Shown here: positions 105 through 16,634 of the stretch, piece by piece
Layout: each line of letters starts with the position of its first letter
Numbering within the stretch: position 1 is the first letter of the stretch
From: Trypanosoma brucei
Taxonomy: Eukaryota
Reading direction: 5' to 3'
DNA length: 64,000 bases
NCBI GenBank assembly: GCA_000002445.1
Contig: CP000071.1
Span: 1,152,001 to 1,216,000 of the forward strand
Notes under the pieces: model-generated
What the model was told of the DNA's origin: nothing
The model's input: the letters and a program-made list of their open reading frames with translations, nothing else
Databases searched by the model: none
Program-made: the position numbers and the translations under genes

Positions 105-3100
105 CTATTCACTGTCCTCAAACTGAAACGACCTTACGGAAACATCAACACCGGAGGCATAAAGTTTTGCCTTGTTTTTCTGTTTCAATTTATTAAAGCT
201 CTTCCCTTTCACACGCATCATTTCCTGGTTTTGACGCAACGCCATATGCTCAGCTTTGGGCCCATTATCCCTCAGATCATTACTAGCGAACGCCACCTTC
301 GTGGGATCAATACGTTGAAATGGCCGACGGACACTCCCAGATCCACGAACAGAAAAATCATCGCACTTCCCAACCACTGGTTGCTTCCTGTCTCTTCGAT
401 ACGAATCGACAGCTTCAACACGTGGCACCTTCCTCAAAATTTCCTCACTCTCACCTTCATAATGTGATAGAGACCTCTTTCTACCGGTCACCCCAAAATC
501 TTCCACAACATCAGAAGAGCTCTCAGGTGCCACCGGTTTCTTCACCGCAGCGTTGCTCTTGGGTGAACTATTGGCTTTCACCAATGGTTTCCGAACGGGT
601 TCATCATCATCAGAAGAGCTGTCAGGTGCCACCGGTTTCTTCACTGCAGCGTTGCTCTTGGGTGAACTATTGGCCTTTACCAGTGGTTTCCGAACGGGTT
701 CATCATCATCATCAGAAGAGCTGTCAGGTGCCACCGGTTTCTTCACTGCAGCGTTGCTCTTGGGTGAACTATTGGCTTTCACCAGTGGTTTCCGAACGGG
801 TTCATCATCATCATCAGAAGAGCTCTCAGGTGCCACCGGTTTCTTCACTGCAGCGTTGCTCTTGGGTGAACTATTGGCTTTCACCAATGGTTTCCGAACG
901 GGTTCATCATCATCATCAGAAGAGCTCTCAGGTGCCACCGGTTTCTTCACTGCAGCGTTGCTCTTGGGTGAACTATTGGCTTTCACCAATGGTTTCCGAA
1001 CGGGTTCATCATCATCATCAGAAGAGCTCTCAGATGCCACCGGTTTCTTCACTGCAGCGTTGCTCTTGGGTGAACTATTGGCTTTCACCAATGGTTTCCG
1101 AACGGGTTCATCATCATCATCAGAAGAGCTGTCAGGTGCCACCGGTTTCTTCACTGCAGCGTTGCTCTTGGGTGAACTATTGGCTTTCACCAATGGTTTC
1201 CGAACGGGTTCATCATCATCATCAGAAGAGCTGTCAGGTGCCACCGGTTTCTTCACTGCAGCGTTGCTCTTGGGTGAACTATTGGCTTTCAGCAGTGGTT
1301 TCCGAACGGGTTCATCATCATCATCAGAAGAGCTGTCAGGTGCCACCGGTTTCTTCACTGCAGCGTTGCTCTTGGGTGAACTATTGGCCTTTACCAGTGG
1401 TTTCCGAACGGGTTCATCATCATCATCAGAAGAGCTGTCAGGTGCCACCGGTTTCTTCACTGCAGCGTTGCTCTTGGGTGAACTATTGGCTTTCACCAGT
1501 GGTTTCCGAACGGGTTCATCATCATCATCAGAAGAGCTCTCAGGTGCCACCGGTTTCTTCACTGCAGCGTTGCTCTTGGGTGAACTATTGGCCTTTACCA
1601 GTGGTTTCCGAACGGGTTCATCATCATCATCAGAAGAGCTGTCAGGTGCCACCGGTTTCTTCACTGCAGCGTTGCTCTTGGGTGAACTATTGGCTTTCAC
1701 CAGTGGTTTCCGAACGGGTTCATCATCATCATCAGAAGAGCTCTCAGATGCCACCGGTTTCTTCACTGCAGCGTTGCTCTTGGGTGAACTATTGGCTTTC
1801 AGCAGTGGTTTCCGAACGGGTTCATCATCATCATCAGAAGAGCTCTCAGGTGCCACCGGTTTCTTCACTGCAGCGTTGCTCTTGGGTGAACTATTGGCTT
1901 TCACCAATGGTTTCCGAACGGGTTCATCATCATCAGAAGAGCTCTCAGGTGCCACCGGTTTCTTCACTGCAGCGTTGCTCTTGGGTGAACTATTGGCTTT
2001 CACCAATGGTTTCCGAACGGGTTCATCATCATCATCAGAAGAGCTCTCAGGTGCCACCGGTTTCTTCACTGCAGCGTTGCTCTTGGGTGAACTATTGGCT
2101 TTCACCAATGGTTTCCGAACGGGTTCATCATCATCATCAGAAGAGCTGTCAGGTGCCACCGGTTTCTTCACTGCAGCGTTGCTCTTGGGTGAACTATTGG
2201 CTTTCACCAATGGTTTCCGAACGGGTTCATCATCATCATCAGAAGAGCTGTCAGGTGCCACCGGTTTCTTCACTGCAGCGTTGCTCTTGGGTGAACTATT
2301 GGCTTTCACCAATGGTTTCCGAACGGGTTCATCATCATCATCAGAAGAGCTGTCAGGTGCCACCGGTTTCTTCACTGCAGCGTTGCTCTTGGGTGAACTA
2401 TTGGCTTTCAGCAGTGGTTTCCGAACGGGTTCATCATCATCATCAGAAGAGCTGTCAGGTGCCACCGGTTTCTTCACTGCAGCGTTGCTCTTGGGTGAAC
2501 TATTGGCCTTTACCAGTGGTTTCCGAACGGGTTCATCATCATCATCAGAAGAGCTGTCAGGTGCCACCGGTTTCTTCACTGCAGCGTTGCTCTTGGGTGA
2601 ACTATTGGCTTTCACCAATGGTTTCCGAACGGGTTCATCATCATCAGAAGAGCTGTCAGGTGCCACCGGTTTCTTCACTGCAGCGTTGCTCTTGGGTGAA
2701 CTATTGGCTTTCAGCAGTGGTTTCCGAACGGGTTCATCATCATCAGAAGAGCTGTCAGGTGCCACCGGTTTCTTCACTGCAGCGTTGCTCTTGGGTGAAC
2801 TATTGGCCTTTACCAGTGGTTTCCGAACGGGTTCATCATCATCATCAGAAGAGCTGTCAGGTGCCACCGGTTTCTTCACTGCAGCGTTGCTCTTGGGTGA
2901 ACTATTGGCTTTCACCAATGGTTTCCGAACGGGTTCATCATCATCAGAAGAGCTGTCAGGTGCCACCGGTTTCTTCACTGCAGCGTTGCTCTTGGGTGAA
3001 CTATTGGCTTTCAGCAGTGGTTTCCGAACGGGTTCATCATCATCAGAAGAGCTGTCAGGTGCCACCGGTTTCTTCACTGCAGCGTTGCTCTTGGGTGAAC

Positions 3101-3722
3101 TATTGGCCTTTACCAATGGTTTCCGAACGGGTTCATCATCATCAGAAGAGCTGTCAGGTGCCACCGGTTTCTTCACTGCAGCGTTGCTCTTGGGTGAACT
3201 ATTGGCTTTCACCAATGGTTTCCGAACGGGTTCATCATCATCATCAGAAGAGCTGTCAGGTGCCACCGGTTTCTTCACTGCAGCGTTGCTCTTGGGTGAA
3301 CTATTGGCTTTCACCAATGGTTTCCGAACGGGTTCATCATCATCATCAGAAGAGCTCTCAGGTGCCACCGGTTTCTTCGGTGTTACTTTACCTTTATTCT
3401 CGATGTCTTTTGCTTTTCTTTTGTTTTCTGATGTCTCAGTGCGCGCTTTCTTTCGAGCCTGTTCACTTTTTTTCACGTCACAGTCTTCAGCTATTCTTTT
3501 TCCTAGGAGTTTGTAAAGAGGTTCATTTTCTTCGTCGGTATGAACGGAGGTTTCCTGATTGTTGTATAATCGCACGGCATCTTCAATGATTGCTCCACTC
3601 GCGTTATTCTGGTTTTTTTCTTGATGATTCTGCAGCGGAACTCTGTTTTTGAATGCCTCGGCAGCGCTAGGACATGTGGCTTCAAGGTACCTCAAAACGA
3701 CTTCCTCGACAGTAACTGGCAT
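105..3722 (-). CDS. Nopp140-like nucleolar phosphoprotein. It has an N-terminal LisH-like segment, about 25 repeats of 38 aa that alternate acidic Ser/Asp clusters with basic Lys/Pro segments, and an SRP40_C-like C-terminus.
   Basis: 1205-aa minus-strand ORF. The N-terminus 'VVLRYLEATCPSAAEAFKN' resembles the LisH motif of Nopp140/treacle. The repeat 'DSSSDDDDEPVRKPLVKANSSPKSNAAVKKPVAP' has CK2-type acidic serine blocks alternating with basic blocks, which is the defining Nopp140 architecture. The C-terminal '...KGKSFNKLKQKNKAKLYASGVDVSVRSFQFEDSE' fits the SRP40 C-terminal domain pattern. A pyrimidine-rich tract plus AG lies upstream on the coding strand at 3723-3775. Confidence 0.65.
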   Translation of the reverse strand: MPVTVEEVVLRYLEATCPSAAEAFKNRVPLQNHQEKNQNNASGAIIEDAVRLYNNQETSVHTDEENEPLYKLLGKRIAEDCDVKKSEQARKKARTETSENKRKAKDIENKGKVTPKKPVAPESSSDDDDEPVRKPLVKANSSPKSNAAVKKPVAPDSSSDDDDEPVRKPLVKANSSPKSNAAVKKPVAPDSSSDDDEPVRKPLVKANSSPKSNAAVKKPVAPDSSSDDDEPVRKPLLKANSSPKSNAAVKKPVAPDSSSDDDEPVRKPLVKANSSPKSNAAVKKPVAPDSSSDDDDEPVRKPLVKANSSPKSNAAVKKPVAPDSSSDDDEPVRKPLLKANSSPKSNAAVKKPVAPDSSSDDDEPVRKPLVKANSSPKSNAAVKKPVAPDSSSDDDDEPVRKPLVKANSSPKSNAAVKKPVAPDSSSDDDDEPVRKPLLKANSSPKSNAAVKKPVAPDSSSDDDDEPVRKPLVKANSSPKSNAAVKKPVAPDSSSDDDDEPVRKPLVKANSSPKSNAAVKKPVAPDSSSDDDDEPVRKPLVKANSSPKSNAAVKKPVAPESSSDDDDEPVRKPLVKANSSPKSNAAVKKPVAPESSSDDDEPVRKPLVKANSSPKSNAAVKKPVAPESSSDDDDEPVRKPLLKANSSPKSNAAVKKPVASESSSDDDDEPVRKPLVKANSSPKSNAAVKKPVAPDSSSDDDDEPVRKPLVKANSSPKSNAAVKKPVAPESSSDDDDEPVRKPLVKANSSPKSNAAVKKPVAPDSSSDDDDEPVRKPLVKANSSPKSNAAVKKPVAPDSSSDDDDEPVRKPLLKANSSPKSNAAVKKPVAPDSSSDDDDEPVRKPLVKANSSPKSNAAVKKPVAPDSSSDDDDEPVRKPLVKANSSPKSNAAVKKPVASESSSDDDDEPVRKPLVKANSSPKSNAAVKKPVAPESSSDDDDEPVRKPLVKANSSPKSNAAVKKPVAPESSSDDDDEPVRKPLVKANSSPKSNAAVKKPVAPDSSSDDDDEPVRKPLVKANSSPKSNAAVKKPVAPDSSSDDDEPVRKPLVKANSSPKSNAAVKKPVAPESSSDVVEDFGVTGRKRSLSHYEGESEEILRKVPRVEAVDSYRRDRKQPVVGKCDDFSVRGSGSVRRPFQRIDPTKVAFASNDLRDNGPKAEHMALRQNQEMMRVKGKSFNKLKQKNKAKLYASGVDVSVRSFQFEDSE
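478..3378. repeat. Tandem array of about 25 copies of a 114-bp unit (some 111 bp, DDD versus DDDD) inside the Nopp140-like CDS
   Basis: Direct reading shows 'ggtgccaccggtttcttcactgcagcgttgctcttgggtgaactattggctttcaccaatggtttccgaacgggttcatcatcatcatcagaagagct' recurring every 114 nt. Only a few point variants occur (ctc/ctg, acc/agc, aat/agt, gcc/gct). Confidence 0.95.
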
Positions 3723-5695
3723 TGCTTACGATTTTTTAGACCCTCAAAGGCTCCTATTTAGAGGAAAGGAAGTTACCGAAGGAGTTGATGCACAGAGGGT
3801 GGTAATGTACGTTATGCTGTCGAGCAGCACGGGCAACTGGTCACACAAAGGGAATAGGTCTTTGGGAGAAAGCGGCGAAAATCAAAGAAAGTTTAATAAA
3901 TTGCAATTAAACAATAAAATGGGCTTTTAAAACGGGCACGTGTTGAAATCAATTCAAACGTTGACGTGTTTTGCCCCTTACATTTTCAACGGTTCCTACA
4001 CAATAATCCCAACGTTTGGAAACATTGCGAGTAGCGGTATAAAGTAAAGTCATAACCGACGAGCGATACTGCAACTTTGTCGCATAGCTTTTGCGATACC
4101 TTGTCGAAAAGGGTGGAAAAGTGGCTTTTAATAAATGAAAGTGACTGTAGGAAGGGTTCAACGCAAGAACGTACCGTTAGGCATACCTCATTGCCTTCAT
4201 GACGGGGGCGCTAAAGGTTAGATGAAATGTGCACACGGTGCTTACTCTGAAAAAGCAATTACTCCATGGGCGTTCCCAGCTTCGAGGAATCATGACTCCT
4301 TTCAAATGATTCAGCAAAAGCAAGCACGAGGTGGACCCCAACCCATTGACAACATTACCATCACCCACCGCCATCTTGTCGGAGAACAAATCAATCCACT
4401 GATCCAATAAATTCAAAAAAAACTTCCGACCGACATATTCCCCATAAATCAAAGACTAATACCAGATAGACTATCATCTTCTTAGAAGTGCCGACCGCAC
4501 ATCACCATGGGAAACGATGACACAATCCCGCACATCCTTTACCTGGGGATAGACCAGAACCGGAAGAGCATCGGTGTGCATCACCAACCTCCTTCAGAAT
4601 CAGAAACCCTATGACACGGAATAACCTTCCCCCACCCACACACACATACGACTCCAATTGTAACAGCAGAGTAGAATGATCCTTAGATGTCTTTAGCCTC
4701 CGACGCAAAACATTCCGAGAGAAAAGTAACGCGCCACTTAAACTCGAAGCATCGGTACCTCGGTAGTCACACATACCCACATACCTCATTACAACAAAAT
4801 ACATGCAAGCCACAACGAATTGTCTGCAAGAACTGCGATACAAGTCTCACTTCAAGTAATTACTAGAGACTGCTCAGGAAACTAAAGGGATACGGTAACG
4901 CATTACCATATTCATTCGAAATAGTCCATAGTCATACACACCTCAGGGGGAAATAAAAAAGCACAACTCTCGTGAAACTTGAAACAGTAACCAATACGAA
5001 GCAGGGGAATACCCCAATTTTCTAAGTATTGTACTCCTTCCCTGTTGTCCTAGTTGCTAAATAATAAATTTGGAAGAAAAAGAGCCAAGTACCATATCAT
5101 ATCTCACTTAGCTATGGTCATAAAGTGAAAAATTGTGGCTCATTAAAGCGTAGAAAAACTTATTCCCAAGTATCCAGGAACAATATTGTTAGTTAGTGTC
5201 TTTTCGTTGAAGAATACAACATCTACACGTGCCACTGTTTAATTCCCTCTGAGAGCAAACATAACGAAGCAAAAGAAAACCTTTATAAAACACTAATTTG
5301 CCGCATGCAAGTCAAACCCTGCGCGATACCGCAAAGGCACTCATCACCTTATGCGTGTGTCGTACTGTATTATTATGATAGTTTACCCTCCACACACAAC
5401 AATAGCCTGTACCATTTAGTTCATTTGTTTTTATCAGCAAAGTCACTGAAAACACGCCCACACACACGCACCACTGCCACAGGAGCAATTATAGAGCAAC
5501 GATTATGACAGCATGCAGCACGACTACAGTAGTGGAGCATAGGTCAGTGCAAGCAAAACATTCAGGTGAGGGCGCACTAACAAAGAAAACGAAAAACAGG
5601 AGGCACGAAACACCCGAATGACCATGTAAATACCGACGAAAGAAATGATGGTAATATCATGTTTTACAGAGAAATCAACCCCCGTTGAACATCAA

Positions 5696-6646
5696 CTATT
5701 TCATAATTCTGCACCACGGATATCCTTGTTTCTTCATTTGATGTTGATGCTGGCTTAACATGCAACCAATAACAATGTAGAAGAAAACATCTGCAATGGT
5801 TTTAAGGGATTCATCGTTCAGTAGACAAGCCAGACAACTGCACAAATAGGCACACCAAATGATGACCGAATCACAACAATCATTTTGCAAATTGTAGTGC
5901 TTACGAATAATGAAACGATTACCGTAAACTGCACACGCAAGGCAAAAGCAAGACTCCAGGCACAAACAGCACGGCTCACAGCCTTCGCAGACACAGCACC
6001 TACTTCCACAAAACATTCCAGCACAGCACAAATAACGAGACCAATCATTTTCCAACAGCTTCTTCCGTTGCAAGAACGCACAGCACCATGGGCAACAACA
6101 GGCACCAAGGCAGAACAGTGGCTCACTGCAAGGTGCCCCCAACATACTCGTTTCCCATTCGTTCTCCCCTTCCCACTTTTGTGCCCCACCGTAGGGGACC
6201 GATAATAACCCTTCAGCTGACTCGTCTAGGTTCCCCCTATTATGCAACTTACCGTAAGCAGCTGGTGGCACGTAAACACCATATAGAAATTGATCGTCCA
6301 TGGCGGTAGGCGGTGTTTTCCAGCCAGCATCGGGCGGCAGAGAAGCGGGCTGTTTTCCATTATCTGTGGGAGGCCCAGCCAGCACATTTAAGGCTGGGGA
6401 ACAATCCCGCCCAGCGCACATACTTTCTTTCGGAGCACCACTGTTGAGAAATATAATAAAAGGAAACAAGAACAGCAGCAAACAAACAACACTATGGAAA
6501 TATTTTGCGCTGTACACGGGACACGGATACCTGACAATTGGAGGCCATCTGTAAAAAAGTAAGACAGGAAAGCAACTAAATGCTACATGTATCACATAAA
6601 CACTCATTTTCTCAACTGTTGCGTCCAAGCTCGCCCGTCCATGCAC
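5696..6646 (-). CDS. PLAC8-family (Cys-rich, DUF614-like) protein, array copy 1. This is the divergent copy lacking the PPPPAGYGQ repeats. The probable true start is the internal Met at about 6421.
   Basis: Cys-rich core 'CLGACCCPWCCAFLQRKKLLENDWSRYLCCAG...CCVCEGCEPCCLCLESCFCLAC' is typical of the PLAC8/Cys-rich domain. Conservation with copies 2 and 3 begins at 'MCAGRDCSPALNVLAGPPTDNGKQP'. The 75 upstream codons are hydrophobic and less protein-like. Confidence 0.6.
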   Translation of the reverse strand: MHGRASLDATVEKMSVYVIHVAFSCFPVLLFYRWPPIVRYPCPVYSAKYFHSVVCLLLFLFPFIIFLNSGAPKESMCAGRDCSPALNVLAGPPTDNGKQPASLPPDAGWKTPPTAMDDQFLYGVYVPPAAYGKLHNRGNLDESAEGLLSVPYGGAQKWEGENEWETSMLGAPCSEPLFCLGACCCPWCCAFLQRKKLLENDWSRYLCCAGMFCGSRCCVCEGCEPCCLCLESCFCLACAVYGNRFIIRKHYNLQNDCCDSVIIWCAYLCSCLACLLNDESLKTIADVFFYIVIGCMLSQHQHQMKKQGYPWCRIMK

Positions 6647-8255
6647 TACCAGTACTACCCGTCTCTCAAACTAAACACTTTCACACTCATATTTCACCCG
6701 CTCGCGAAGTATTGTCGCTTCAAACATCTACTACGACTGCCCGCATACAATCCACCGGTTGAGGATCTATTACAATAAATGACGCGGCCACACTCATTTG
6801 TAGAGGAGAGCCACATTGGGTTAAAATCTAAACAGAAAGACCAAAAATTAGCGTTACAGAAAAAGAGATAGCGAGTAGAACAGCACAACAGCCTCTCACT
6901 TAGCGAGAAACACACGCACTTGGATAAAAGATAGTGCACACAAATATAACACAATCCTTCCCGACTAGCAACCAGCCATGAACAAGATCTCGCATCCATT
7001 AGCCAACACTTTGCACTTTAAAAGCGATATATCCAACCATGACGCAGGGATAACCGTCAAAATGTCGAACTTTATCTGCTGAGTGACCTTTACATCCACC
7101 CGCGCACTTCAAGTAACCGTCATCATTTGCTCTTTTTGTTTTACCAACCTCCTTCAGAATCAGAAACCCTATGACACGGAATAACCTTCCCCCACCCACA
7201 CACACATACGACTCCAATTGTAACAGCAGAGTAGAATGATCCTCAGATGTCTTTAGCCTCCGACGCAAAACATTCCGAGAGAAAAGTAACGCGCCACTTA
7301 AACTCGAAGCATCGGTACCTCGGTAGTCACACATACCCACATACCTCATTACAACAAAATACATGCAAGCCACAACGAATTGTCTGCAAGAACTGCGATA
7401 CAAGTCTCACTTCAAGTAATTACTAGAGACTGCTCAGGAAACTAAAGGGATACGGTAACGCATTACCATATTCATTCGAAATAGTCCATAGTCATACACA
7501 CCTCAGGGGGAAATAAAAAAGCACAACTCTCGTGAAACTTGAAACAGTAACCAATACGAAGCAGGGGAATACCCCAATTTTCTAAGTATTGTACTCCTTC
7601 CCTGTTGTCCTAGTTGCTAAATAATAAATTTGGAAGAAAAAGAGCCAAGTACCATATCATATCTCACTTAGCTATGGTCATAAAGTGAAAAATTGTGGCT
7701 CATTAAAGCGTAGAAAAACTTATTCCCAAGTATCCAGGAACAATATTGTTAGTTAGTGTCTTTTCGTTGAAGAATACAACATCTACACGTGCCACTGTTT
7801 AATTCCCTCTGAGAGCAAACATAACGAAGCAAAAGAAAACCTTTATAAAACACTAATTTGCCGCATGCAAGTCAAACCCTGCGCGATACCGCAAAGGCAC
7901 TCATCACCTTATGCGTGTGTCGTACTGTATTATTATGATAGTTTACCCTCCACACACAACAATAGCCTGTACCATTTAGTTCATTTGTTTTTATCAGCAA
8001 AGTCACTGAAAACACGCCCACACACACGCACCACTGCCACAGGAGCAATTATAGAGCAACGATTATGACAGCATGCAGCACGACTACAGTAGTGGAGCAT
8101 AGGTCAGTGCAAGCAAAACATTCAGGTGAGGGCGCACTAACAAAGAAAACGAAAAACAGGAGGCACGAAACACCCGAATGACCATGTAAATACCGACGAA
8201 AGAAATGATGGTAATATCATGTTTTACAGAGAAATCAACCCCCGTTGAACATCAA

Positions 8256-9272
8256 CTATTCCATTGTTTGCTCTCTTGGATATCCTTGTTTCTTCATTTG
8301 ATGTTGATGCTGGCTTAACATGCAACCAATAACAATGTAGAAGAAAACATCTGCAATGGTTTTAAGGGATTCATCGTTCAGTAGACAAGCCAGACAACTG
8401 CACAAATAGGCACACCAAATGATGACCGAATCACAACAATCATTTTGCAAATTGTAGTGCTGAAGAACCATGAAACGATTACCGTGAGCGGCACAGGGGA
8501 GGCAAAAGCAAGACTCCAGGCACAAACAGCACGGCTCACAGCCTTCGCAGACACAGCAATTCCTGTCGCCACAAAGTCCAGCACAACACAAATAACGAGA
8601 CCAATCATTTTCCAACAGCTTCTTCCGTTGCAAGAACGCACAGCACCATGGGCAACAACAGGCACCAAGGCAGAACAGTGGCTCACTGCAAGGTGCCCCC
8701 AACATACTCGTTTCCCATTCGTTCTCCCCTTCCCACTTTTGCACTTCAGCATAGTCATCCGGTGGTTTGTAAACGCCACACGGCGGTTGACCATATCCGG
8801 CAGGTGGTGGGGGTTGACCATATCCGGCAGGTGGTGGGGGTTGACCATATCCGGCAGGTGGTGGGGGCTGACCATATCCGGCAGGTGGTGGGGGTTGACC
8901 ATATCCGGCAGGTGGTGGGGGTTGACCATATCCGGCAGGTGGTGGGGGTTGACCATATCCGGCAGGTGGTGGGGGCTGTTTTCCATTATCTGTGGGAGGC
9001 CCAGCCAGCACATTTAAGGCTGGGGAACAATCCCGCCCAGCGCACATACTTTCTTTCGGAGCACCACTGTTGAGAAATATAATAAAAGGAAACAAGAACA
9101 GCAGCAAACAAACAACACTATGGAAATATTTTGCGCTGTACACGGGACACGGATACCTGACAATTGGAGGCCATCTGTAAAAAAGTAAGACAGGAAAGCA
9201 ACTAAATGCTACATGTATCACATAAACACTCATTTTCTCAACTGTTGCGTCCAAGCTCGCCCGTCCATGCAC
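8256..9272 (-). CDS. PLAC8-family protein, array copy 2, with 7 copies of PPPPAGYGQ. The probable start is the internal Met at about 9047.
   Basis: Same Cys-rich PLAC8-like core as copy 1. Seven tandem 27-nt units encode PPPPAGYGQ. Confidence 0.65.
   Translation of the reverse strand: MHGRASLDATVEKMSVYVIHVAFSCFPVLLFYRWPPIVRYPCPVYSAKYFHSVVCLLLFLFPFIIFLNSGAPKESMCAGRDCSPALNVLAGPPTDNGKQPPPPAGYGQPPPPAGYGQPPPPAGYGQPPPPAGYGQPPPPAGYGQPPPPAGYGQPPPPAGYGQPPCGVYKPPDDYAEVQKWEGENEWETSMLGAPCSEPLFCLGACCCPWCCAFLQRKKLLENDWSRYLCCAGLCGDRNCCVCEGCEPCCLCLESCFCLPCAAHGNRFMVLQHYNLQNDCCDSVIIWCAYLCSCLACLLNDESLKTIADVFFYIVIGCMLSQHQHQMKKQGYPREQTME
8795..8983. repeat. 27-bp coding minisatellite (ggttgaccatatccggcaggtggtggg)x7 in PLAC8 copy 2
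   Basis: Direct tandem repetition is visible in the sequence. Units alternate the variants ggggttgacc and gggctgacc. Confidence 0.9.
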
Positions 9273-10881
9273 TACCAGTACTACCCGTCTCTCAAACTAA
9301 ACACTTTCACACTCATATTTCACCCGCTCGCGAAGTATTGTCGCTTCAAACATCTACTACGACTGCCCGCATACAATCCACCGGTTGAGGATCTATTACA
9401 ATAAATGACGCGGCCACACTCATTTGTAGAGGAGAGCCACATTGGGTTAAAATCTAAACAGAAAGACCAAAAATTAGCGTTACAGAAAAAGAGATAGCGA
9501 GTAGAACAGCACAACAGCCTCTCACTTAGCGAGAAACACACGCACTTGGATAAAAGATAGTGCACACAAATATAACACAATCCTTCCCGACTAGCAACCA
9601 GCCATGAACAAGATCTCGCATCCATTAGCCAACACTTTGCACTTTAAAAGCGATATATCCAACCATGACGCAGGGATAACCGTCAAAATGTCGAACTTTA
9701 TCTGCTGAGTGACCTTTACATCCACCCGCGCACTTCAAGTAACCGTCATCATTTGCTCTTTTTGTTTTACCAACCTCCTTCAGAATCAGAAACCCTATGA
9801 CACGGAATAACCTTCCCCCACCCACACACACATACGACTCCAATTGTAACAGCAGAGTAGAATGATCCTTAGATGTCTTTAGCCTCCGACGCAAAACATT
9901 CCGAGAGAAAAGTAACGCGCCACTTAAACTCGAAGCATCGGTACCTCGGTAGTCACACATACCCACATACCTCATTACAACAAAATACATGCAAGCCACA
10001 ACGAATTGTCTGCAAGAACTGCGATACAAGTCTCACTTCAAGTAATTACTAGAGACTGCTCAGGAAACTAAAGGGATACGGTAACGCATTACCATATTCA
10101 TTCGAAATAGTCCATAGTCATACACACCTCAGGGGGAAATAAAAAAGCACAACTCTCGTGAAACTTGAAACAGTAACCAATACGAAGCAGGGGAATACCC
10201 CAATTTTCTAAGTATTGTACTCCTTCCCTGTTGTCCTAGTTGCTAAATAATAAATTTGGAAGAAAAAGAGCCAAGTACCATATCATATCTCACTTAGCTA
10301 TGGTCATAAAGTGAAAAATTGTGGCTCATTAAAGCGTAGAAAAACTTATTCCCAAGTATCCAGGAACAATATTGTTAGTTAGTGTCTTTTCGTTGAAGAA
10401 TACAACATCTACACGTGCCACTGTTTAATTCCCTCTGAGAGCAAACATAACGAAGCAAAAGAAAACCTTTATAAAACACTAATTTGCCGCATGCAAGTCA
10501 AACCCTGCGCGATACCGCAAAGGCACTCATCACCTTATGCGTGTGTCGTACTGTATTATTATGATAGTTTACCCTCCACACACAACAATAGCCTGTACCA
10601 TTTAGTTCATTTGTTTTTATCAGCAAAGTCACTGAAAACACGCCCACACACACGCACCACTGCCACAGGAGCAATTATAGAGCAACGATTATGACAGCAT
10701 GCAGCACGACTACAGTAGTGGAGCATAGGTCAGTGCAAGCAAAACATTCAGGTGAGGGCGCACTAACAAAGAAAACGAAAAACAGGAGGCACGAAACACC
10801 CGAATGACCATGTAAATACCGACGAAAGAAATGATGGTAATATCATGTTTTACAGAGAAATCAACCCCCGTTGAACATCAA

Positions 10882-12033
10882 CTATTCCATTGTTTGCTCT
10901 CTTGGATATCCTTGTTTCTTCATTTGATGTTGATGCTGGCTTAACATGCAACCAATAACAATGTAGAAGAAAACATCTGCAATGGTTTTAAGGGATTCAT
11001 CGTTCAGTAGACAAGCCAGACAACTGCACAAATAGGCACACCAAATGATGACCGAATCACAACAATCATTTTGCAAATTGTAGTGCTGAAGAACCATGAA
11101 ACGATTACCGTGAGCGGCACAGGGGAGGCAAAAGCAAGACTCCAGGCACAAACAGCACGGCTCACAGCCTTCGCAGACACAGCAATTCCTGTCGCCACAA
11201 AGTCCAGCACAACACAAATAACGAGACCAATCATTTTCCAACAGCTTCTTCCGTTGCAAGAACGCACAGCACCATGGGCAACAACAGGCACCAAGGCAGA
11301 ACAGTGGCTCACTGCAAGGTGCCCCCAACATACTCGTTTCCCATTCGTTCTCCCCTTCCCACTTTTGCACTTCAGCATAGTCATCCGGTGGTTTGTAAAC
11401 GCCACACGGCGGTTGACCATATCCGGCAGGTGGTGGGGGTTGACCATATCCGGCAGGTGGTGGGGGCTGACCATATCCGGCAGGTGGTGGGGGTTGACCA
11501 TATCCGGCAGGTGGTGGGGGCTGACCATATCCGGCAGGTGGTGGGGGTTGACCATATCCGGCAGGTGGTGGGGGTTGACCATATCCGGCAGGTGGTGGGG
11601 GTTGACCATATCCGGCAGGTGGTGGGGGCTGACCATATCCGGCAGGTGGTGGGGGTTGACCATATCCGGCAGGTGGTGGGGGTTGACCATATCCGGCAGG
11701 TGGTGGGGGTTGACCATATCCGGCAGGTGGTGGGGGCTGTTTTCCATTATCTGTGGGAGGCCCAGCCAGCACATTTAAGGCTGGGGAACAATCCCGCCCA
11801 GCGCACATACTTTCTTTCGGAGCACCACTGTTGAGAAATATAATAAAAGGAAACAAGAACAGCAGCAAACAAACAACACTATGGAAATATTTTGCGCTGT
11901 ACACGGGACACGGATACCTGACAATTGGAGGCCATCTGTAAAAAAGTAAGACAGGAAAGCAACTAAATGCTACATGTATCACATAAACACTCATTTTCTC
12001 AACTGTTGCGTCCAAGCTCGCCCGTCCATGCAC
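10882..12033 (-). CDS. PLAC8-family protein, array copy 3, with 12 copies of PPPPAGYGQ. The probable start is the internal Met at about 11808.
   Basis: Identical to copy 2 except that it has 12 rather than 7 PPPPAGYGQ units. Confidence 0.65.
   Translation of the reverse strand: MHGRASLDATVEKMSVYVIHVAFSCFPVLLFYRWPPIVRYPCPVYSAKYFHSVVCLLLFLFPFIIFLNSGAPKESMCAGRDCSPALNVLAGPPTDNGKQPPPPAGYGQPPPPAGYGQPPPPAGYGQPPPPAGYGQPPPPAGYGQPPPPAGYGQPPPPAGYGQPPPPAGYGQPPPPAGYGQPPPPAGYGQPPPPAGYGQPPPPAGYGQPPCGVYKPPDDYAEVQKWEGENEWETSMLGAPCSEPLFCLGACCCPWCCAFLQRKKLLENDWSRYLCCAGLCGDRNCCVCEGCEPCCLCLESCFCLPCAAHGNRFMVLQHYNLQNDCCDSVIIWCAYLCSCLACLLNDESLKTIADVFFYIVIGCMLSQHQHQMKKQGYPREQTME
11411..11737. repeat. 27-bp coding minisatellite x12 in PLAC8 copy 3
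   Basis: Same unit as the array at 8795-8983, with 12 copies. Confidence 0.9.
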
Positions 12034-12484
12034 TACCAGTACTACCCGTCTCTCAAACTAAACACTTTCACACTCATATTTCACCCGCTCGCGAAGTATT
12101 GTCGCTTCAAACATCTACTACGACTGCCCGCATACAATCCACCGGTTGAGGATCTATTACAATAAATGACGCGGCCACACTCATTTGTAGAGGAGAGCCA
12201 CATTGGGTTAAAATCTAAACAGAAAGACCAAAAATTAGCGTTACAGAAAAAGAGATAGCGAGTAGAACAGCACAACAGCTTCTCACTTAGCGAGAAACAC
12301 ACGCACTTAGGAAAACAAATGTTAGGCATGAAACTGAAAAAAAAAGAAACTCGAGGAGATGGAAGAAGGAAAAGACAACAGTCAATTTTCATCCACTGGA
12401 TACTAATAAACCAAAAAAGATGGTAATAATCTATAATGGAGTCACATTCACTTGCAGTGAAAGCGAGTGCACGTGCCAACTCAT

Positions 12485-13682: not shown

Positions 13683-16634
13683 CTACTTTAATTTATACCA
13701 CTGATGCCGGCACTGAGCGGCACTACGTCGCACCATCCGCTTGTGATCACTCAATGCCACCTGAGACACATGAAGAACTTCGTCTCTTACCTGCAACGCG
13801 CTGCTCATGTAGGAGTTGCCGCTGTCACCATTCTCTGATGAAAACTGCATGACAAACAAGGCTGCCTCACTCAATAGACGCAGCGAGGTACACCGCACCT
13901 TAAGTAATGGTGATCTAACACCACTCAGCACCAGTGGCAGAAGGTCGTCGGTTCCTAAAAGTGCCTCTACCAACACATTCTTCGGGTCCATCTGAGACAA
14001 AGCAAGGTCGAGCAGCTCCACAAGCTCGTTGACAAACTCTTCATTCAGTGGCTTCGACACTCTTCGGGAAAATTCGACGATGTCACCCCACTCCAACCCA
14101 CAAGTGGGTGACACATCCTGGAGGAGTTTTGCAACAACTCTCAGCAACTCGAGTGAAACGGGTTTGCTGCCCCTCGTGGCAGCATGCACCAGAGGCAAAA
14201 TGAGGGTCGTGGTTTTTCTGCACCCTTGATAACAGAACACGAACACTCCCGTCAGTATATCAACGTAACAATCCTGTACGTATCCACTGCGAAGGGAGTT
14301 GGTAATTTCTTCGATGATTAGTTCAATAATCCCGCCTTCTGCCACACCACAAGCAAGCAGACCACGAGCAACAGCTGCCCGCGCCGCGAGCTGCGTGGTT
14401 GGGTTCAACCGCTTCGCTGCTTCGAGAAAGCGACCTGCGACACCGGGCACCCGCGCACACAGTGATGACACACTCTGCATTGTTAATACATCTGTCGGTG
14501 TGCTGCGCACTGCATCCAAAACTTCGCACATCCAATGTTCTATGTGATCCGAAACACCCAGGACATCCATGTCAAAACATGAAACTAGAGAAGCTGTCAA
14601 TACACCCCATTGCTCTCCCCCCACCTCCTGAAGCACAGATGGAACGAAAGCAATGGGAAGCAGCAGGAGCAAATCGCACAGATAGTCAAAGCTTGCCACA
14701 GAATTCCTCTTTTTGGTCAAAAGCAGAAGGCAACGAATATCTTCGGTAGAGTAGTCCGCGTGCGCAGAGAGACTGGAGCGACACAAGGAAAAAACATCCC
14801 TTTCGGTAAGGGTAAATCCGAACAAACCTTCTGGACATTCTAACAGTGATTTTGTGGCAGCTAGTGATAAAGAGGCCTGCGACCCTAACAAGCCTTTGTA
14901 GAGTGTAAGAATACCGGCTGCTGTGGGATTTATGTCAGCAGGCATGTCCAACAGCGCAACATTCAGTAAATTTCCTTCGACAGAGCCAATGCGTGAGATA
15001 TGCTTCACAACCCTGTTGCCGACTTCCTCATCTCCACAGAGACAAAGTGCTATAAGTCTCTTGTAGATGAGTAGAACTGTGTCATCGGGCATCCAGTGTG
15101 GAAGCCATGCTGCAAGGGTAACCAGCGATGCAAGCAACTCGCACCTTACATGCACAGAAGATGCGTCAGCCTTTTGCAGTGACAAGGTCAACTTCTCCAC
15201 AAGTTGAAACAATTTCTCACTCACGGTTTCGAGACCTTCTTTAACATCACGCTGTGGGGGCGGCCTCTTTCCACATTCGCCACCATTACCCGCATCGAAA
15301 ATCCCACTAAGTATGGCGGAAATGATGAGGACCGCATCGTCGACTTCAAAACTATCCTCCCGCGTATTCGACAGTAGCTGCAGCAAAAAGCACTGCACAG
15401 TGGCCGCACCGCAACATGTGCTACTGCTGACAAGGTGATAGAACATAGTTGCATAGGCGGAACACACAGCTGGTCCCGACCTCAAACTAGCCAGTGCGCC
15501 ACTCGTCATTGGCTCTAGCCACGAGCGGACGATTGATAACGAAACATCCTGCGCTCTTTTGGAGATGAACTTCAATACGTGTACGCAGTCCTTAACGTAC
15601 GGCTCACATTCCCCAGACCCGAGTGATACTGCTCGGACGACTTCGTTCCTTATGTGATTTGTCACAGAAACCACATGCGGGCACAAACTCTCGGTGGTGT
15701 GACTCGAATCCAACGAGAAAATGTTTAAAAGCGCATTCGTGGATTCCTGCTTAACAACAGAGGATGGGGACGCCATTCTTGACAACAGAAATGGGACACA
15801 AATGTTCAAATACAAGGGATGCGTCATGCATGCCGACAGGACACGCCGCAAATCCTCTTTCGACACCTTACATCCGGGTGGTTGTGAAAATACCACCGGG
15901 AAATAACTAGAAATACTGTCAAAATACTCCTCCAGCAAGGGTTGCATGGCATCTTCTCTCGCATAAGAGGCAATTATGTGATGTAACTCAAGCGCACGCA
16001 TTAGTAACTCCGGTTCATTTTCCTCATCCATAGATTTTAGGACAACTTGAAGAAAGGGGGTGGTGAACCACGTTGCGGTCTCTTTTGTAACAGTAAAGCG
16101 AAGAACGTCGTACCCCCAACTCCGGACGTTGGTCGGGAGGGCTTGCAAACTGAAGCTCTGCAAAAACTCAGTGTGTAAAACGTTGAAAACGTCACTGGTA
16201 CATGGCCCCTCTGATGACAGCTCTCTGACAAGAAGGGCCGTAGATTCCACAGCAACCGCGATCGTTTGCATTGAAGAGAGCTTTCTGGAGAAAAACCTCA
16301 GCATAACATCGACCTCTTCAATTGTGCGGTCGCGCCGATTCACTGTAGCAAGCCCCAGAACACGGACTGCATTTACAACGTGCTCTTCTCCTGTGAGGTA
16401 TTTACCCATCATGCGCGATAATTGCAGAAGAGGGATTTCGCGAAGCTTTTCAAGCGCCACTTCATCAGCGTTAGTCCCGCACGTAACAACACCTTGAAGT
16501 AATGTATCAACTTCCTCAACAGACATACTACTTTTTCGATATATATTCTTTACTCGTCCTATTCTTGGTTTCTTCAAGTTTTCTTCTACTGACAACCAGT
16601 TTTCAGGCGATAGGCAACCGTAAAGTGACTGCAA
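13683..16634 (-). CDS. MMS19-like HEAT/ARM-repeat protein (cytosolic Fe-S assembly targeting / DNA repair family)
   Basis: 983-aa helical-repeat protein. The segment 'YFPVVFSQPPGCKVSKEDLRRVLSACMTHPLYLNICVPFLLSRMASPSSVVKQES' matches the conserved MMS19 N-domain block (human 'YFPIDFTPPPNDPHGIQREDL...FLLPLLIEKVDSEILSAKLDS'). The length and composition fit MMS19. Confidence 0.5.
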   Translation of the reverse strand: MQSLYGCLSPENWLSVEENLKKPRIGRVKNIYRKSSMSVEEVDTLLQGVVTCGTNADEVALEKLREIPLLQLSRMMGKYLTGEEHVVNAVRVLGLATVNRRDRTIEEVDVMLRFFSRKLSSMQTIAVAVESTALLVRELSSEGPCTSDVFNVLHTEFLQSFSLQALPTNVRSWGYDVLRFTVTKETATWFTTPFLQVVLKSMDEENEPELLMRALELHHIIASYAREDAMQPLLEEYFDSISSYFPVVFSQPPGCKVSKEDLRRVLSACMTHPLYLNICVPFLLSRMASPSSVVKQESTNALLNIFSLDSSHTTESLCPHVVSVTNHIRNEVVRAVSLGSGECEPYVKDCVHVLKFISKRAQDVSLSIVRSWLEPMTSGALASLRSGPAVCSAYATMFYHLVSSSTCCGAATVQCFLLQLLSNTREDSFEVDDAVLIISAILSGIFDAGNGGECGKRPPPQRDVKEGLETVSEKLFQLVEKLTLSLQKADASSVHVRCELLASLVTLAAWLPHWMPDDTVLLIYKRLIALCLCGDEEVGNRVVKHISRIGSVEGNLLNVALLDMPADINPTAAGILTLYKGLLGSQASLSLAATKSLLECPEGLFGFTLTERDVFSLCRSSLSAHADYSTEDIRCLLLLTKKRNSVASFDYLCDLLLLLPIAFVPSVLQEVGGEQWGVLTASLVSCFDMDVLGVSDHIEHWMCEVLDAVRSTPTDVLTMQSVSSLCARVPGVAGRFLEAAKRLNPTTQLAARAAVARGLLACGVAEGGIIELIIEEITNSLRSGYVQDCYVDILTGVFVFCYQGCRKTTTLILPLVHAATRGSKPVSLELLRVVAKLLQDVSPTCGLEWGDIVEFSRRVSKPLNEEFVNELVELLDLALSQMDPKNVLVEALLGTDDLLPLVLSGVRSPLLKVRCTSLRLLSEAALFVMQFSSENGDSGNSYMSSALQVRDEVLHVSQVALSDHKRMVRRSAAQCRHQWYKLK

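What the first reader, a model, noticed from the sequence alone, without database searches (positions are those of the whole stretch)
4575..12310. Tandem array of three PLAC8-type cysteine-rich protein genes with a length-variable (PPPPAGYGQ)n coding minisatellite (0, 7, 12 units)
PLAC8/DUF614 proteins typically carry Pro-rich N-termini (cf. plant FW2.2/PCR and metazoan PLAC8/cornifelin families). Here the Pro-rich region is a perfect 27-nt minisatellite whose copy number differs between adjacent, otherwise identical gene copies (7 vs 12). Copy 1 has replaced it with unrelated sequence while keeping the Cys-rich core. This is in-locus evidence of unequal crossing-over or replication slippage generating protein length isoforms. 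Such arrays are uncommon for this family and the function is unknown in kinetoplastids.
Basis: partly seen in the sequence, partly recalled or inferred. Interest (0 to 1): 0.55.

Follow-up and report, generated by a model that had tools for sequence, protein, structure and literature searches.

The report
Trypanosome PLAC8-like gene triplet, variable repeat
Three tandem copies of an already annotated Trypanosoma brucei gene for a small cysteine-rich membrane-type protein differ mainly in a 27-base coding repeat (0, 7 or 12 units), and they are close relatives of a protein recently reported to make T. b. gambiense resistant to human serum.

Summary
Window 4583-12310 is a head-to-tail array of 2.9 units (2560/2626 nt) on the minus strand. 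It carries three intact genes. Two have identical coding sequences except for 7 versus 12 perfect PPPPAGYGQ units. The third lacks the repeat and differs in three further short coding patches.

The window is T. brucei TREU927 chromosome 8. The genes are the annotated XP_847219/20/21, inferred to be Tb927.8.3880-3900, the T. brucei positional homologues of family 75 in the published cell-surface phylome.

The PLAC8 label is only partly supported. However:
- a family profile matches vertebrate PLAC8 (hhalign E=3.6e-5, probability 71%);
- 15 of 147 family representatives hit PF04749;
- orthologues carry the CLxxxxCPC motif.

The proteins are best described as a divergent PLAC8-like clade.

New context: they are 44% identical (E=7e-47) to TgsRV/Tb927.2.3340, the endosomal protein reported in 2026 as the T. 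b. gambiense human-serum-resistance determinant. The DAL972 locus has two repeat-less copies instead of three copies. The mechanism (slippage or unequal exchange plus gene conversion) and the function are inferred, not shown.

The parts
4583..12310 (-). Whole tandem array: 2.9 head-to-tail units (unit 1 4583-7142, unit 2 7143-9768, unit 3 9769-~12310)
   Evidence: Self-BLAST. The right-hand boundary, where homology ends, is at about 9547/12308.
5696..6607 (-). Copy 1 (type A, no repeat). The annotated CDS is 303 aa (XP_847219; inferred Tb927.8.3880). The probable true start is the ATG at 6421, giving 241 aa.
   Evidence: Exact match to P0003. ORF. Start-codon reasoning.
8256..9233 (-). Copy 2 (type B, 7 repeat units). 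The annotated CDS is 325 aa (XP_847220). The probable true start is the ATG at 9047, giving 263 aa.
   Evidence: Exact match to P0001..
10882..11994 (-). Copy 3 (type B, 12 repeat units). The annotated CDS is 370 aa (XP_847221). The probable true start is the ATG at 11808, giving 308 aa.
   Evidence: Exact match to P0020..
8787..8975 (-). Coding minisatellite, 7 x 27 nt (PPPPAGYGQ)
11413..11736 (-). Coding minisatellite, 12 x 27 nt (PPPPAGYGQ)
6182..6346 (-). Copy 1 N-terminal replacement block (ASLPPDAGWKTPPTAMDDQFLYGVYVPPAAYGKLHNRGNLDESAEGLLSVPYGGA), occupying the place of the repeat
5999..6026 (-). Divergent patch 3 (GMFCGSRCC in copy 1, GLCGDRNCC in copies 2 and 3)
5902..5939 (-). Divergent patch 2 (LACAVYGNRFIIRKHY versus LPCAAHGNRFMVLQHY)
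5701..5717 (-). Divergent patch 1, the C-terminal tail (PWCRIMK versus PREQTME)

Best explanation
This is the Trypanosoma brucei TREU927 chromosome 8 locus that I infer to be Tb927.8.3880-3900. It lies between the thymidylate kinase gene and a Nopp140-like nucleolar protein gene. It is a lineage-specific triplication of a gene that is single-copy and syntenic in the T. cruzi and T. vivax assemblies examined.

**The protein.** Each gene encodes a small protein with two parts:
- an N-terminal low-complexity tail rich in Pro, Gly, Tyr and Gln;
- an all-helical core of about 160 residues with 17% cysteine and hydrophobic segments.

The core belongs to a large eukaryotic family (about 1000 representatives at 50% identity). 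That family is a distant, sub-threshold relative of PLAC8. In trypanosomes it includes TgsRV/Tb927.2.3340.

**How the array evolves (inferred).**
- The tail is an ancestral feature whose repeat turns over quickly. In T. brucei it is encoded by a nearly perfect 27-nt minisatellite.
- Replication slippage or unequal sister-chromatid or inter-copy exchange changes the unit number. Going from 7 to 12 units needs at least two events, judging from the CAA/CAG unit pattern.
- Gene conversion keeps the 2.6-kb units almost identical.
- It leaves short older patches that define two isoform types: A (copy 1) and B (copies 2 and 3).

**Function (inferred only from the paralogue).** I propose a membrane-associated protein of the endocytic compartment. 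The disordered tail would act as a multivalent interaction surface, with valency set by repeat number.

The confidence given applies to the identity, family placement and evolutionary mechanism. The functional part alone deserves about 0.3.
For: **Identity of the locus**
- The three proteins match XP_847219/20/21 of TREU927 exactly.
- The gene numbering fits Tb927.8.3860 = CIA1 and .3920 = MMS19 (PMC6211773).3870 = Nucleolar protein 127 (PMC9896412), and .3880 = the positional homologue of family 75 (PMC3605285).
- The neighbour carries an SRP40_C domain and the next gene a thymidylate kinase domain.

**Synteny and copy number**
- T. cruzi has a single copy after the thymidylate kinase gene, and so does T. 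vivax.
- T. b. gambiense DAL972 has two copies.
- In a neighbour-joining tree all T. brucei chromosome 8 copies form one clade with 100% bootstrap.

**Repeat turnover**
- The repeat unit is 21 nt x 14 in T. cruzi (88% matches) and 63 nt x 4.8 in T. vivax (95% matches).
- In T. brucei it is 27 nt x 7 and x 12, near-perfect (97-98% matches by Tandem Repeats Finder; only synonymous CAA/CAG differences between units).

**Homogenisation with mosaic patches**
- Copy 1 and copy 2 differ at one position in about 1.9 kb of flanking sequence.
- In the core, pS is 0.107 and pN is 0.047, with all differences in short patches.
- One DAL972 copy is recombinant inside patch 2.

**Family and PLAC8 link**
- 1051 representatives match the family profile at E<=1e-3.
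- PF04749 is the only recurrent Pfam family: 8 of 17 close homologues and 15 of 147 representatives, best E=3.7e-7.
- hhalign against vertebrate PLAC8 gives E=3.6e-5 and probability 71%.
- The family HMM scores 87% of real PLAC8 proteins above the 99th percentile of composition-matched shuffles.
- The CLxxxxCPC motif is exact in the T. cruzi, T. conorhini and T. congolense orthologues and is CLGACCCPWC here.

**Structure.** The AlphaFold2 model from the deep alignment has pLDDT 90.4 and is all-helical.

**Paralogy to TgsRV.** BLASTP gives 44% identity and E=7e-47 over the whole core. P0289 carries L20, D158 and K189 as described for TgsRV. The preprint reports endocytic localisation.
Against: - No signature HMM (PF04749, TIGR01571) reaches significance for these proteins or for TgsRV itself. 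The PLAC8 relationship therefore rests on weak profile evidence.
- hhalign does not align the C-terminal CCxxCALxQ part of PLAC8.
- The afdb50 fold library was unavailable, and the PDB holds no analogue. There is no structural confirmation.
- Nothing here shows expression, localisation or function of the chromosome 8 proteins. Transferring function from a 44%-identical paralogue is an inference.
- The slippage and gene-conversion history is inferred from one assembly.
- The DAL972 and T. equiperdum comparisons may be affected by collapse of near-identical units during assembly.
- pN/pS of 0.44 gives no evidence that the patches are under diversifying selection.
Confidence: 0.7

Rival explanations
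1. The proteins are not PLAC8 relatives at all. They form an independent Cys-rich helical family, and the resemblance to PLAC8 is compositional (many Cys, short CxxC-type motifs).
For: - Pfam PF04749 and TIGR01571 are not significant, while the positive control passes.
- The reciprocal vertebrate-PLAC8 HMM does not separate family members from shuffles.
- hhalign probability is only 11% with the shallow profile and 71% with the deep one.
- The core (about 160 aa) is longer than the 101-position PLAC8 model.
Against: - The family HMM scores real PLAC8 proteins far above composition-matched shuffles (median 7.9 versus -10.2 bits; 87% above the 99th percentile).
- PF04749 is the only family hit recurrently.
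- The aligned columns are the expected motifs: W-x-T/G-L, CLxxxxC(P)xC, and R-x(3)-Y-x-[IL]-x(3)-CD.
- The motif is exact in three orthologues.
Confidence: 0.2
2. The 7-versus-12 difference, or the number of gene copies, is an assembly artefact of near-identical 2.6-kb units in the Sanger-era reference. It would then not be a real in-locus polymorphism.
For: - Units 2 and 3 are 99.85-99.9% identical.
- The DAL972 assembly shows only two copies.
- T. equiperdum shows a 3.5-kb contig with one repeat unit that ends inside the repeated unit, which is typical of collapse.
Against: - Each copy has its own anchoring features. Copy 1 has four private patches. Copy 3 joins unique upstream sequence at about 12310. 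Copies 2 and 3 differ at two flanking substitutions as well as in the repeat.
- The repeat tracts (189 and 324 nt) are short enough to be spanned by single Sanger reads (my own knowledge of read lengths).
- The two tracts have different internal CAA/CAG patterns.
Confidence: 0.07
3. Like the plant PCR proteins, the proteins act as oligomeric divalent-cation (Zn/Cd/Ca) exporters or channels, with the CLxxxxCPC helix lining a pore. On this view the repeat tail is irrelevant to function and its length variation is neutral.
For: - The CLxxxxCP(x)C motif sits at the equivalent position.
- The PCR literature ascribes metal transport to that motif (PMC12467093).
- The model has hydrophobic helices.
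Against: - The relationship to PCR proteins is very distant.
- The only functional datum in the trypanosome clade concerns innate-immunity resistance and endocytic localisation, not metal transport.
- P/G/Y/Q tails are conserved in every Trypanosoma orthologue with a complete N-terminus, and as C-terminal tails in plant and algal homologues. That argues the tail is not dispensable.
Confidence: 0.1

Closest known systems
[quoted passage not shown]
   Same: - The core domain matches end to end: 44% identity, E=7e-47.
- Both have a short P/G/Y-rich N-terminal region followed by ENEWET...QHQM..GYP.
- Both are labelled 'T. brucei spp.-specific protein' in DAL972.
- Neither is detected by Pfam PLAC8.
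   Different: - TgsRV is single-copy on chromosome 2, 215 aa, with no minisatellite.
- It lacks the CLxxxxCPxC motif.
- It sits on a long branch outside the chromosome 8 clade.
- Its role in human-serum resistance and its endocytic localisation are shown for TgsRV only.
Cell-surface phylome family 75 ('PLAC8 family') of T. congolense
   Same: - It is the positional homologue of Tb927.8.3880 and also occurs as tandem copies (PMC3605285 Table 1).
- The T. congolense orthologue P0007 is 54% identical (57% over the core domain) and has an N-terminal Pro-rich repeat.
   Different: - The T. congolense repeat unit is about 33 aa and contains a true PPAY motif.
- T. congolense members are reported as immunoreactive antigens regulated by TcREG9.1 (PMC10919850).
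- No such data exist for the T. brucei copies in what I could search.
Plant and algal 'PLAC8 family protein' long type (for example Manihot LOC110629852, Nannochloris)
   Same: - They share the core family: E=2.9e-10 to a single sequence, and they are in the top hits of the profile search.
- They also carry Pro/Gly/Tyr repeats such as PPPPGAY.
   Different: - The repeat tail is C-terminal, not N-terminal.
- There is an extra inserted segment between the CD motif and the last helix.
- Identity is about 30%.
Canonical PLAC8 / PCR / FW2.2-CNR proteins (Pfam PF04749, TIGR01571)
   Same: - They are Cys-rich small proteins with the N-terminal W-x-[TG]-L, CLxxxxC(P)xC and R...Y.I...CD motifs in the same order.
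- Many have Pro-rich N-termini.
   Different: - The signature HMMs are not met.
- The trypanosome core is about 60 residues longer, with an added helical hairpin before the C-x-L-x-Q motif.
- There is no evidence here for metal transport or cell-number control.

Membership tests
PLAC8 (Pfam PF04749) | Score at or above the gathering threshold (34.4 bits) against the PF04749 HMM | tested here: not met
   - Full ORFs give no hit at E<=0.01.
- For the core domains at E<=10, copy 1 scores 8.7 bits (E=4.6) and copies 2 and 3 give nothing.
- The control mammalian PLAC8 scores 49.3 bits.
PLAC8 (TIGR01571, PCR/CNR family Cys-rich protein) | Score at or above the cut-off (35.05 bits) against TIGR01571 | tested here: not met
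   No hit at E<=10 for copy 1, copy 2, TgsRV, the T. cruzi orthologue or the Manihot homologue. The control scores 80.9 bits.
PLAC8 superfamily (remote homology) | Profile-profile similarity to bona fide PLAC8 proteins beyond what composition explains | tested here: inconclusive
   - hhalign with the deep family profile against vertebrate PLAC8 gives E=3.6e-5, probability 71%, 70 aligned columns.
- The shallow profile gives probability 11%.
- The family HMM beats the 99th percentile of shuffles for 87% of PLAC8 proteins, but the reciprocal test is negative.
- 15 of 147 representatives hit PF04749 at E<=0.01, best 3.7e-7.
PLAC8 superfamily | CC/CLxxxxCPC motif in the first hydrophobic segment | tested here: inconclusive
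   - The T. brucei copies have CLGACCCPWC, with one extra residue before the last Cys.
- The motif is exact (CLxxxxCPC) in the T. cruzi, T. conorhini and T. congolense orthologues.
- It is absent from TgsRV.
- The motif definition comes from PMC12467093.
PLAC8 superfamily | Same three-dimensional fold as PLAC8-domain proteins | not testable with these tools
   A good model was obtained (pLDDT 90.4). However, the AlphaFold-database libraries were unavailable, and the PDB holds no PLAC8-like structure.
Trypanosome TgsRV / family 75 clade of PLAC8-like proteins | Significant full-length similarity of the core to TgsRV/Tb927.2.3340 | tested here: met
   BLASTP gives 44% identity and E=7e-47 over residues 30-214 of TgsRV. 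Tb927.2.3340 matches the family profile at E=6.5e-37. Identity of P0289 with TgsRV rests on L20, D158 and K189.
Trypanosome TgsRV / family 75 clade of PLAC8-like proteins | Positional homology: the locus lies immediately after the thymidylate kinase and MMS19 genes | tested here: met
   The neighbour order is the same in the window, DAL972, T. cruzi and T. vivax. Family 75 names Tb927.8.3880 as the positional homologue.
Trypanosome TgsRV / family 75 clade of PLAC8-like proteins | Localisation to endocytic compartments | not testable with these tools
   [quoted passage not shown] I found no data for the chromosome 8 proteins in the searchable literature.
Coding minisatellite with copy-number variation | In-frame head-to-tail units of at least 10 nt, near-identical, with different unit numbers in otherwise identical alleles or paralogues | tested here: met
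   There are 7 and 12 units of 27 nt, and all translate to PPPPAGYGQ. The rest of the coding sequence is identical.

The most novel reading that the evidence does not exclude
The chromosome 8 array and TgsRV may form one functional module of endocytic PLAC8-like proteins that influences how trypanosomes handle host innate factors (TLF/ApoL1).

The array's subspecies-specific make-up would then contribute to human-serum resistance or host range:
- TREU927 has B12-B7-A.
- T. b. gambiense DAL972 has two repeat-less copies. One carries a private 132-nt patch in the very helix hairpin that in TgsRV is bracketed by the resistance residues D158 and K189.

On this reading, repeat number would tune the valency of a sorting or interaction tail.
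Probability: 0.08. Interest if true: 0.75.

Novelty: already known. Interest (0 to 1): 0.33.

Why it matters
The array itself is an annotated, catalogued reference-genome locus, so it is not a discovery. The added value is context:

- These genes are the closest paralogues of TgsRV, the protein a 2026 preprint reports as essential for T. b. gambiense survival in human serum.
- That preprint does not mention paralogues.
- The T. b. gambiense reference has a different set of copies at this locus.

This gives a cheap, testable question: do the chromosome 8 paralogues share TgsRV's location, or modify its effect?

The case also shows that 'PLAC8' labels on these trypanosome proteins, TgsRV included, are not backed by the standard PLAC8 HMMs. 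The labels should be read as 'distant PLAC8-like'.

The 27-nt repeat could serve as a strain-typing marker.

Tried and rejected
- **Signature HMMs.** Pfam and NCBIfam/TIGRFAM scans of the three proteins and of TgsRV gave no significant PLAC8 hit.
- **Shallow structure model.** AlphaFold2 on the 17-sequence alignment gave pLDDT 55.8, too poor to use. It was replaced by the 147-sequence model.
- **Fold searches.**
  - afdb50 was not installed.
  - Foldseek against the PDB gave one meaningless hit at E=6.2.
  - A PDB sequence-profile search found nothing.
- **Other assemblies.** Exact-protein look-ups of copies 3 and 1 were not on record, so Lister 427 long-read assemblies could not be examined.
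- **Copy 1 block as a decayed repeat.** Rejected at DNA level (z=1.3). There is only a weak motif echo at protein level.
- **Positive selection on the divergent patches.** Not supported: pN/pS is 0.44 and synonymous differences cluster too, which favours old tracts spared by gene conversion.
- **DAL972-specific patch copied from TgsRV.** Rejected: alignment score 39 versus 121 to copy 2. It is not a frameshift artefact either, at 66% DNA identity.
- **Tail-composition survey.** The HMM envelopes absorbed the tails, so the survey across 156 family members was uninformative.
- **RNA families.** An Rfam scan of the whole window found no hits.
- **Literature.** Searches for the accession numbers and for Tb927.8.3890/3900 found nothing.

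Full report
**1. What is in the sequence**

The region holds three ORFs on the minus strand: 5696-6646, 8256-9272 and 10882-12033. Tandem Repeats Finder reports a 27-nt period at 8785-8975 (7.1 copies, 98% matches) and 11411-11736 (12.1 copies, 97%).

A pattern search for the unit with up to three mismatches finds exactly 19 copies (7 + 12). All are on the minus strand, none lies elsewhere in the 64 kb, and none is expected by chance. In coding orientation every unit reads CCCCCACCACCTGCCGGATATGGTCA[A/G] = PPPPAGYGQ. The only variation is the synonymous last base, in the patterns AAAGAAA and AAAGAAAGAGAA. Going from 7 to 12 units therefore needs at least two expansion events.

Self-BLAST shows a head-to-tail array:
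- unit 1, 4583-7142 (2560 nt);
- unit 2, 7143-9768 (2626 nt);
- unit 3, 9769 to about 12310, where homology ends.

Units 2 and 3 differ only by the 135-nt (five-unit) indel and two substitutions in the flanks, so the two coding sequences are otherwise identical.

Unit 1 differs from unit 2 at one position in about 1.9 kb of non-coding flank. Within the coding sequence it differs in four discrete patches:
- 5701-5717, the C-terminal tail;
- 5902-5939;
- 5999-6026;
- 6182-6346, which takes the place of the repeat.

**2. Where the window comes from**

The three proteins match T. brucei brucei TREU927 XP_847219 (303 aa), XP_847220 (325 aa) and XP_847221 (370 aa) exactly. All sit on the 2.48-Mb chromosome 8 record and are annotated 'hypothetical protein, conserved'.

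Published gene numbers for the neighbours fit the order seen in the window:
- Tb927.8.3860 is CIA1 and Tb927.8.3920 is MMS19 (PMC6211773).
- Tb927.8.3870 is 'Nucleolar protein 127' (PMC9896412).

The window order is a Nopp140-like protein with an SRP40_C domain, the three genes, thymidylate kinase, then MMS19. I therefore infer that the three genes are Tb927.8.3880.3890 and .3900. A later paper refers to family 75 as 'PLAC8 domain transcripts' and notes that T. congolense members are immunoreactive antigens (PMC10919850). The locus is thus annotated and catalogued.

**3. Probable true start codon (inferred)**

The annotation starts at MSVYVIH (ATGs at 6607, 9233 and 11994). This adds 62 residues rich in Phe, Leu and Pro that no orthologue has. 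The T. vivax, T. cruzi, T. conorhini and T. congolense proteins and the paralogue TgsRV all begin directly at the P/G/Y-rich region.

The extension is 60% pyrimidine on the coding strand. A pyrimidine tract followed by AG lies at 9092-9068, just upstream of the in-frame ATG at 9047 (MCAGRDC...). I think the real products are about 241, 263 and 308 aa. This needs spliced-leader mapping to confirm.

**4. Is it PLAC8?**

- Pfam PF04749 gives nothing for copies 2 and 3, and 8.7 bits (E=4.6) for the copy 1 core, against a cut-off of 34.4.
- TIGR01571 gives nothing.
- A mammalian PLAC8 control scores 49.3 and 80.9 bits on the two models.
- TgsRV, which its authors describe as a PLAC8-domain protein, also fails both models.

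More sensitive evidence points to a distant relationship:
- Homologues found by sequence include plant and algal proteins that their sources name 'PLAC8 family protein'.
- PF04749 is the only Pfam family hit recurrently. It matches 8 of 17 close homologues at E<=10 (best 8e-4) and 15 of 147 family representatives at E<=0.01 (best 3.7e-7).
- hhalign of the 147-sequence family profile against a vertebrate PLAC8 profile gives E=3.6e-5 and probability 71%. It aligns W-x-T-x-L, CLxxxxC(P)xC and R-x3-Y-x-[IL]-x3-CD in order. The 17-sequence profile gave only 11%.
- The family HMM scores 87% of 120 real PLAC8 proteins above the 99th percentile of composition-matched shuffles. The reciprocal test with the narrow vertebrate HMM is negative.
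- The hallmark CLxxxxCPC motif (definition: PMC12467093) is exact in the T. cruzi, T. conorhini and T. congolense orthologues. In the window it is CLGACCCPWC.

A structural test could not be done. The deep alignment gives a confident all-helical model (pLDDT 90.4, pTM 0.84). However, the AlphaFold-database libraries were unavailable, and the PDB holds nothing similar.

My reading is that this is a divergent PLAC8-like clade, not a member by the standard signatures. The family is large, with 1051 representatives at 50% identity at E<=1e-3.

**5. The important relative**

One representative in the profile search is Tb927.2.3340 (215 aa). Its T. b. gambiense DAL972 counterpart P0289 differs at P20L, G84D, N158D and E189K.

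A June 2026 preprint (bioRxiv 10.64898/2026.06.16.732631) identifies Tbg.972.2.1820 as TgsRV. It is a 215-residue protein with L20, D86, D158 and K189. The preprint reports that it is necessary for growth of T. b. gambiense in human serum, that it is sufficient together with TgsGP, and that it localises to endocytic compartments. Three of the four positions match exactly. The fourth is D84 in the database sequence rather than D86.

Copy 2 of the window is 44% identical to TgsRV over the whole core (E=7e-47). A neighbour-joining tree places all T. brucei chromosome 8 copies in one clade (100% bootstrap). TgsRV sits on a long branch beside the Trypanosoma clade with weak support, so the age of the duplication is unresolved. 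The preprint does not mention paralogues.

**6. Comparative picture of the locus**

| Assembly | Copies at the locus | Repeat |
|---|---|---|
| T. cruzi YC6 | one, after thymidylate kinase | 21 nt x 14.2 |
| T. vivax | one | 63 nt x 4.8 |
| T. b. gambiense DAL972 | two (302 and 303 aa), both type A | no 27-nt repeat |
| T. brucei TREU927 (window) | three: B12, B7, A | 27 nt x 12 and x 7 |

T. congolense and T. conorhini orthologues also have their own repeat units. The repetitive P/G/Y/Q tail is therefore ancestral and turns over rapidly. The triplication is specific to the T. brucei lineage.

Among the DAL972 copies:
- One is recombinant within patch 2 (AAHGNRFIIRK).
- The other carries a further private patch only 66% identical at DNA level.

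A 3.5-kb T. equiperdum contig joins a type B gene with a single repeat unit to the unique sequence that follows copy 1 in TREU927. The contig ends inside the repeated unit and may be a collapsed assembly.

**7. Mechanism**

What is shown directly:
- near-identity of the units;
- in-frame perfect repeats with different counts;
- a mosaic distribution of differences, with pS 0.107 and pN 0.047 in the core against about 0.05% divergence in the flanks.

What is inferred:
- Repeat number changes by replication slippage or unequal exchange.
- The units are homogenised by gene conversion, and the patches are older tracts that conversion has not erased. pN/pS of 0.44 gives no sign of diversifying selection.

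Function is inferred from the paralogue alone. I propose a membrane-associated, Cys-rich helical protein of the endocytic system, with a disordered tail acting as a multivalent interaction surface. None of this was or could be tested here. The alternative of a PCR-like cation transporter cannot be excluded.

**8. Verdict**

The locus is already annotated and catalogued, so novelty is low. Its interest comes from the unremarked paralogy with TgsRV and from the different make-up of the locus in the T. b. gambiense reference. These give a concrete experiment, but so far no evidence of a role.

Noticed in passing
window 105-3722 (-), repeat 509-3378: The neighbouring gene encodes a 1205-aa protein with 28.3 copies of a 102-nt (34-aa) acidic/Ser-rich repeat and an SRP40_C domain. 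It looks Nopp140-like and is probably Tb927.8.3870, 'Nucleolar protein 127'. The DAL972 counterpart is 986 aa, so this repeat also varies in copy number. The Pfam AAA_26 hit inside the repeat looks spurious.
   Followed up: partly
window 13683-16634 (-): This is the MMS19 gene (Tb927.8.3920). PMC6211773 states that T. brucei has a second MMS19 gene, Tb927.8.3500, that is 99.6% identical. That implies a recent segmental duplication on chromosome 8 outside this window. No second copy of the PLAC8-like genes turned up in the protein clusters.
   Followed up: no
window 6422-6607, 9048-9233, 11809-11994 (-): The annotated 62-residue N-terminal extension (MSVYVIH...APKES) of all three genes is pyrimidine-rich and is absent from all orthologues and from TgsRV. 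It is probably 5' UTR or a splice-acceptor region rather than coding sequence.
   Followed up: partly
P0289/P0197 (chromosome 2 paralogue, not in the window): The resistance-associated D158 of TgsRV restores the nearly invariant Asp of the family's 'CD' motif, so the T. b. brucei Asn is the deviant state. The database sequence has the G-to-D change at residue 84, whereas the preprint says 86. TgsRV lacks the CLxxxxCPC motif and does not hit the PLAC8 HMMs.
   Followed up: partly
L001 10001-10909 (T. b. gambiense DAL972 copy of 302 aa): This copy carries a private 132-nt segment only 66% identical to the other copies. It replaces the helix hairpin (DLLLMSCCPLCCCLAFVIDDERFNLFVGTWGAAFAC) that corresponds to the TgsRV segment between residues 158 and 189. 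It is not derived from TgsRV, and its donor is unknown.
   Followed up: partly
L005 (T. equiperdum contig CZPT02000543.1): A type B gene with a single PPPPAGYGQ unit lies directly next to the unique sequence that in TREU927 follows type A copy 1. This is either a real structural variant of the array or a short-read collapse.
   Followed up: partly
window 8378-9013, 8445-9017, 11004-11774, 11071-11778 and others: Long ORFs in other frames and on the plus strand across the minisatellite (HHLPDMVN and LTISGRWWG repeats) are frame artefacts of the repeat, not genes.
   Followed up: yes
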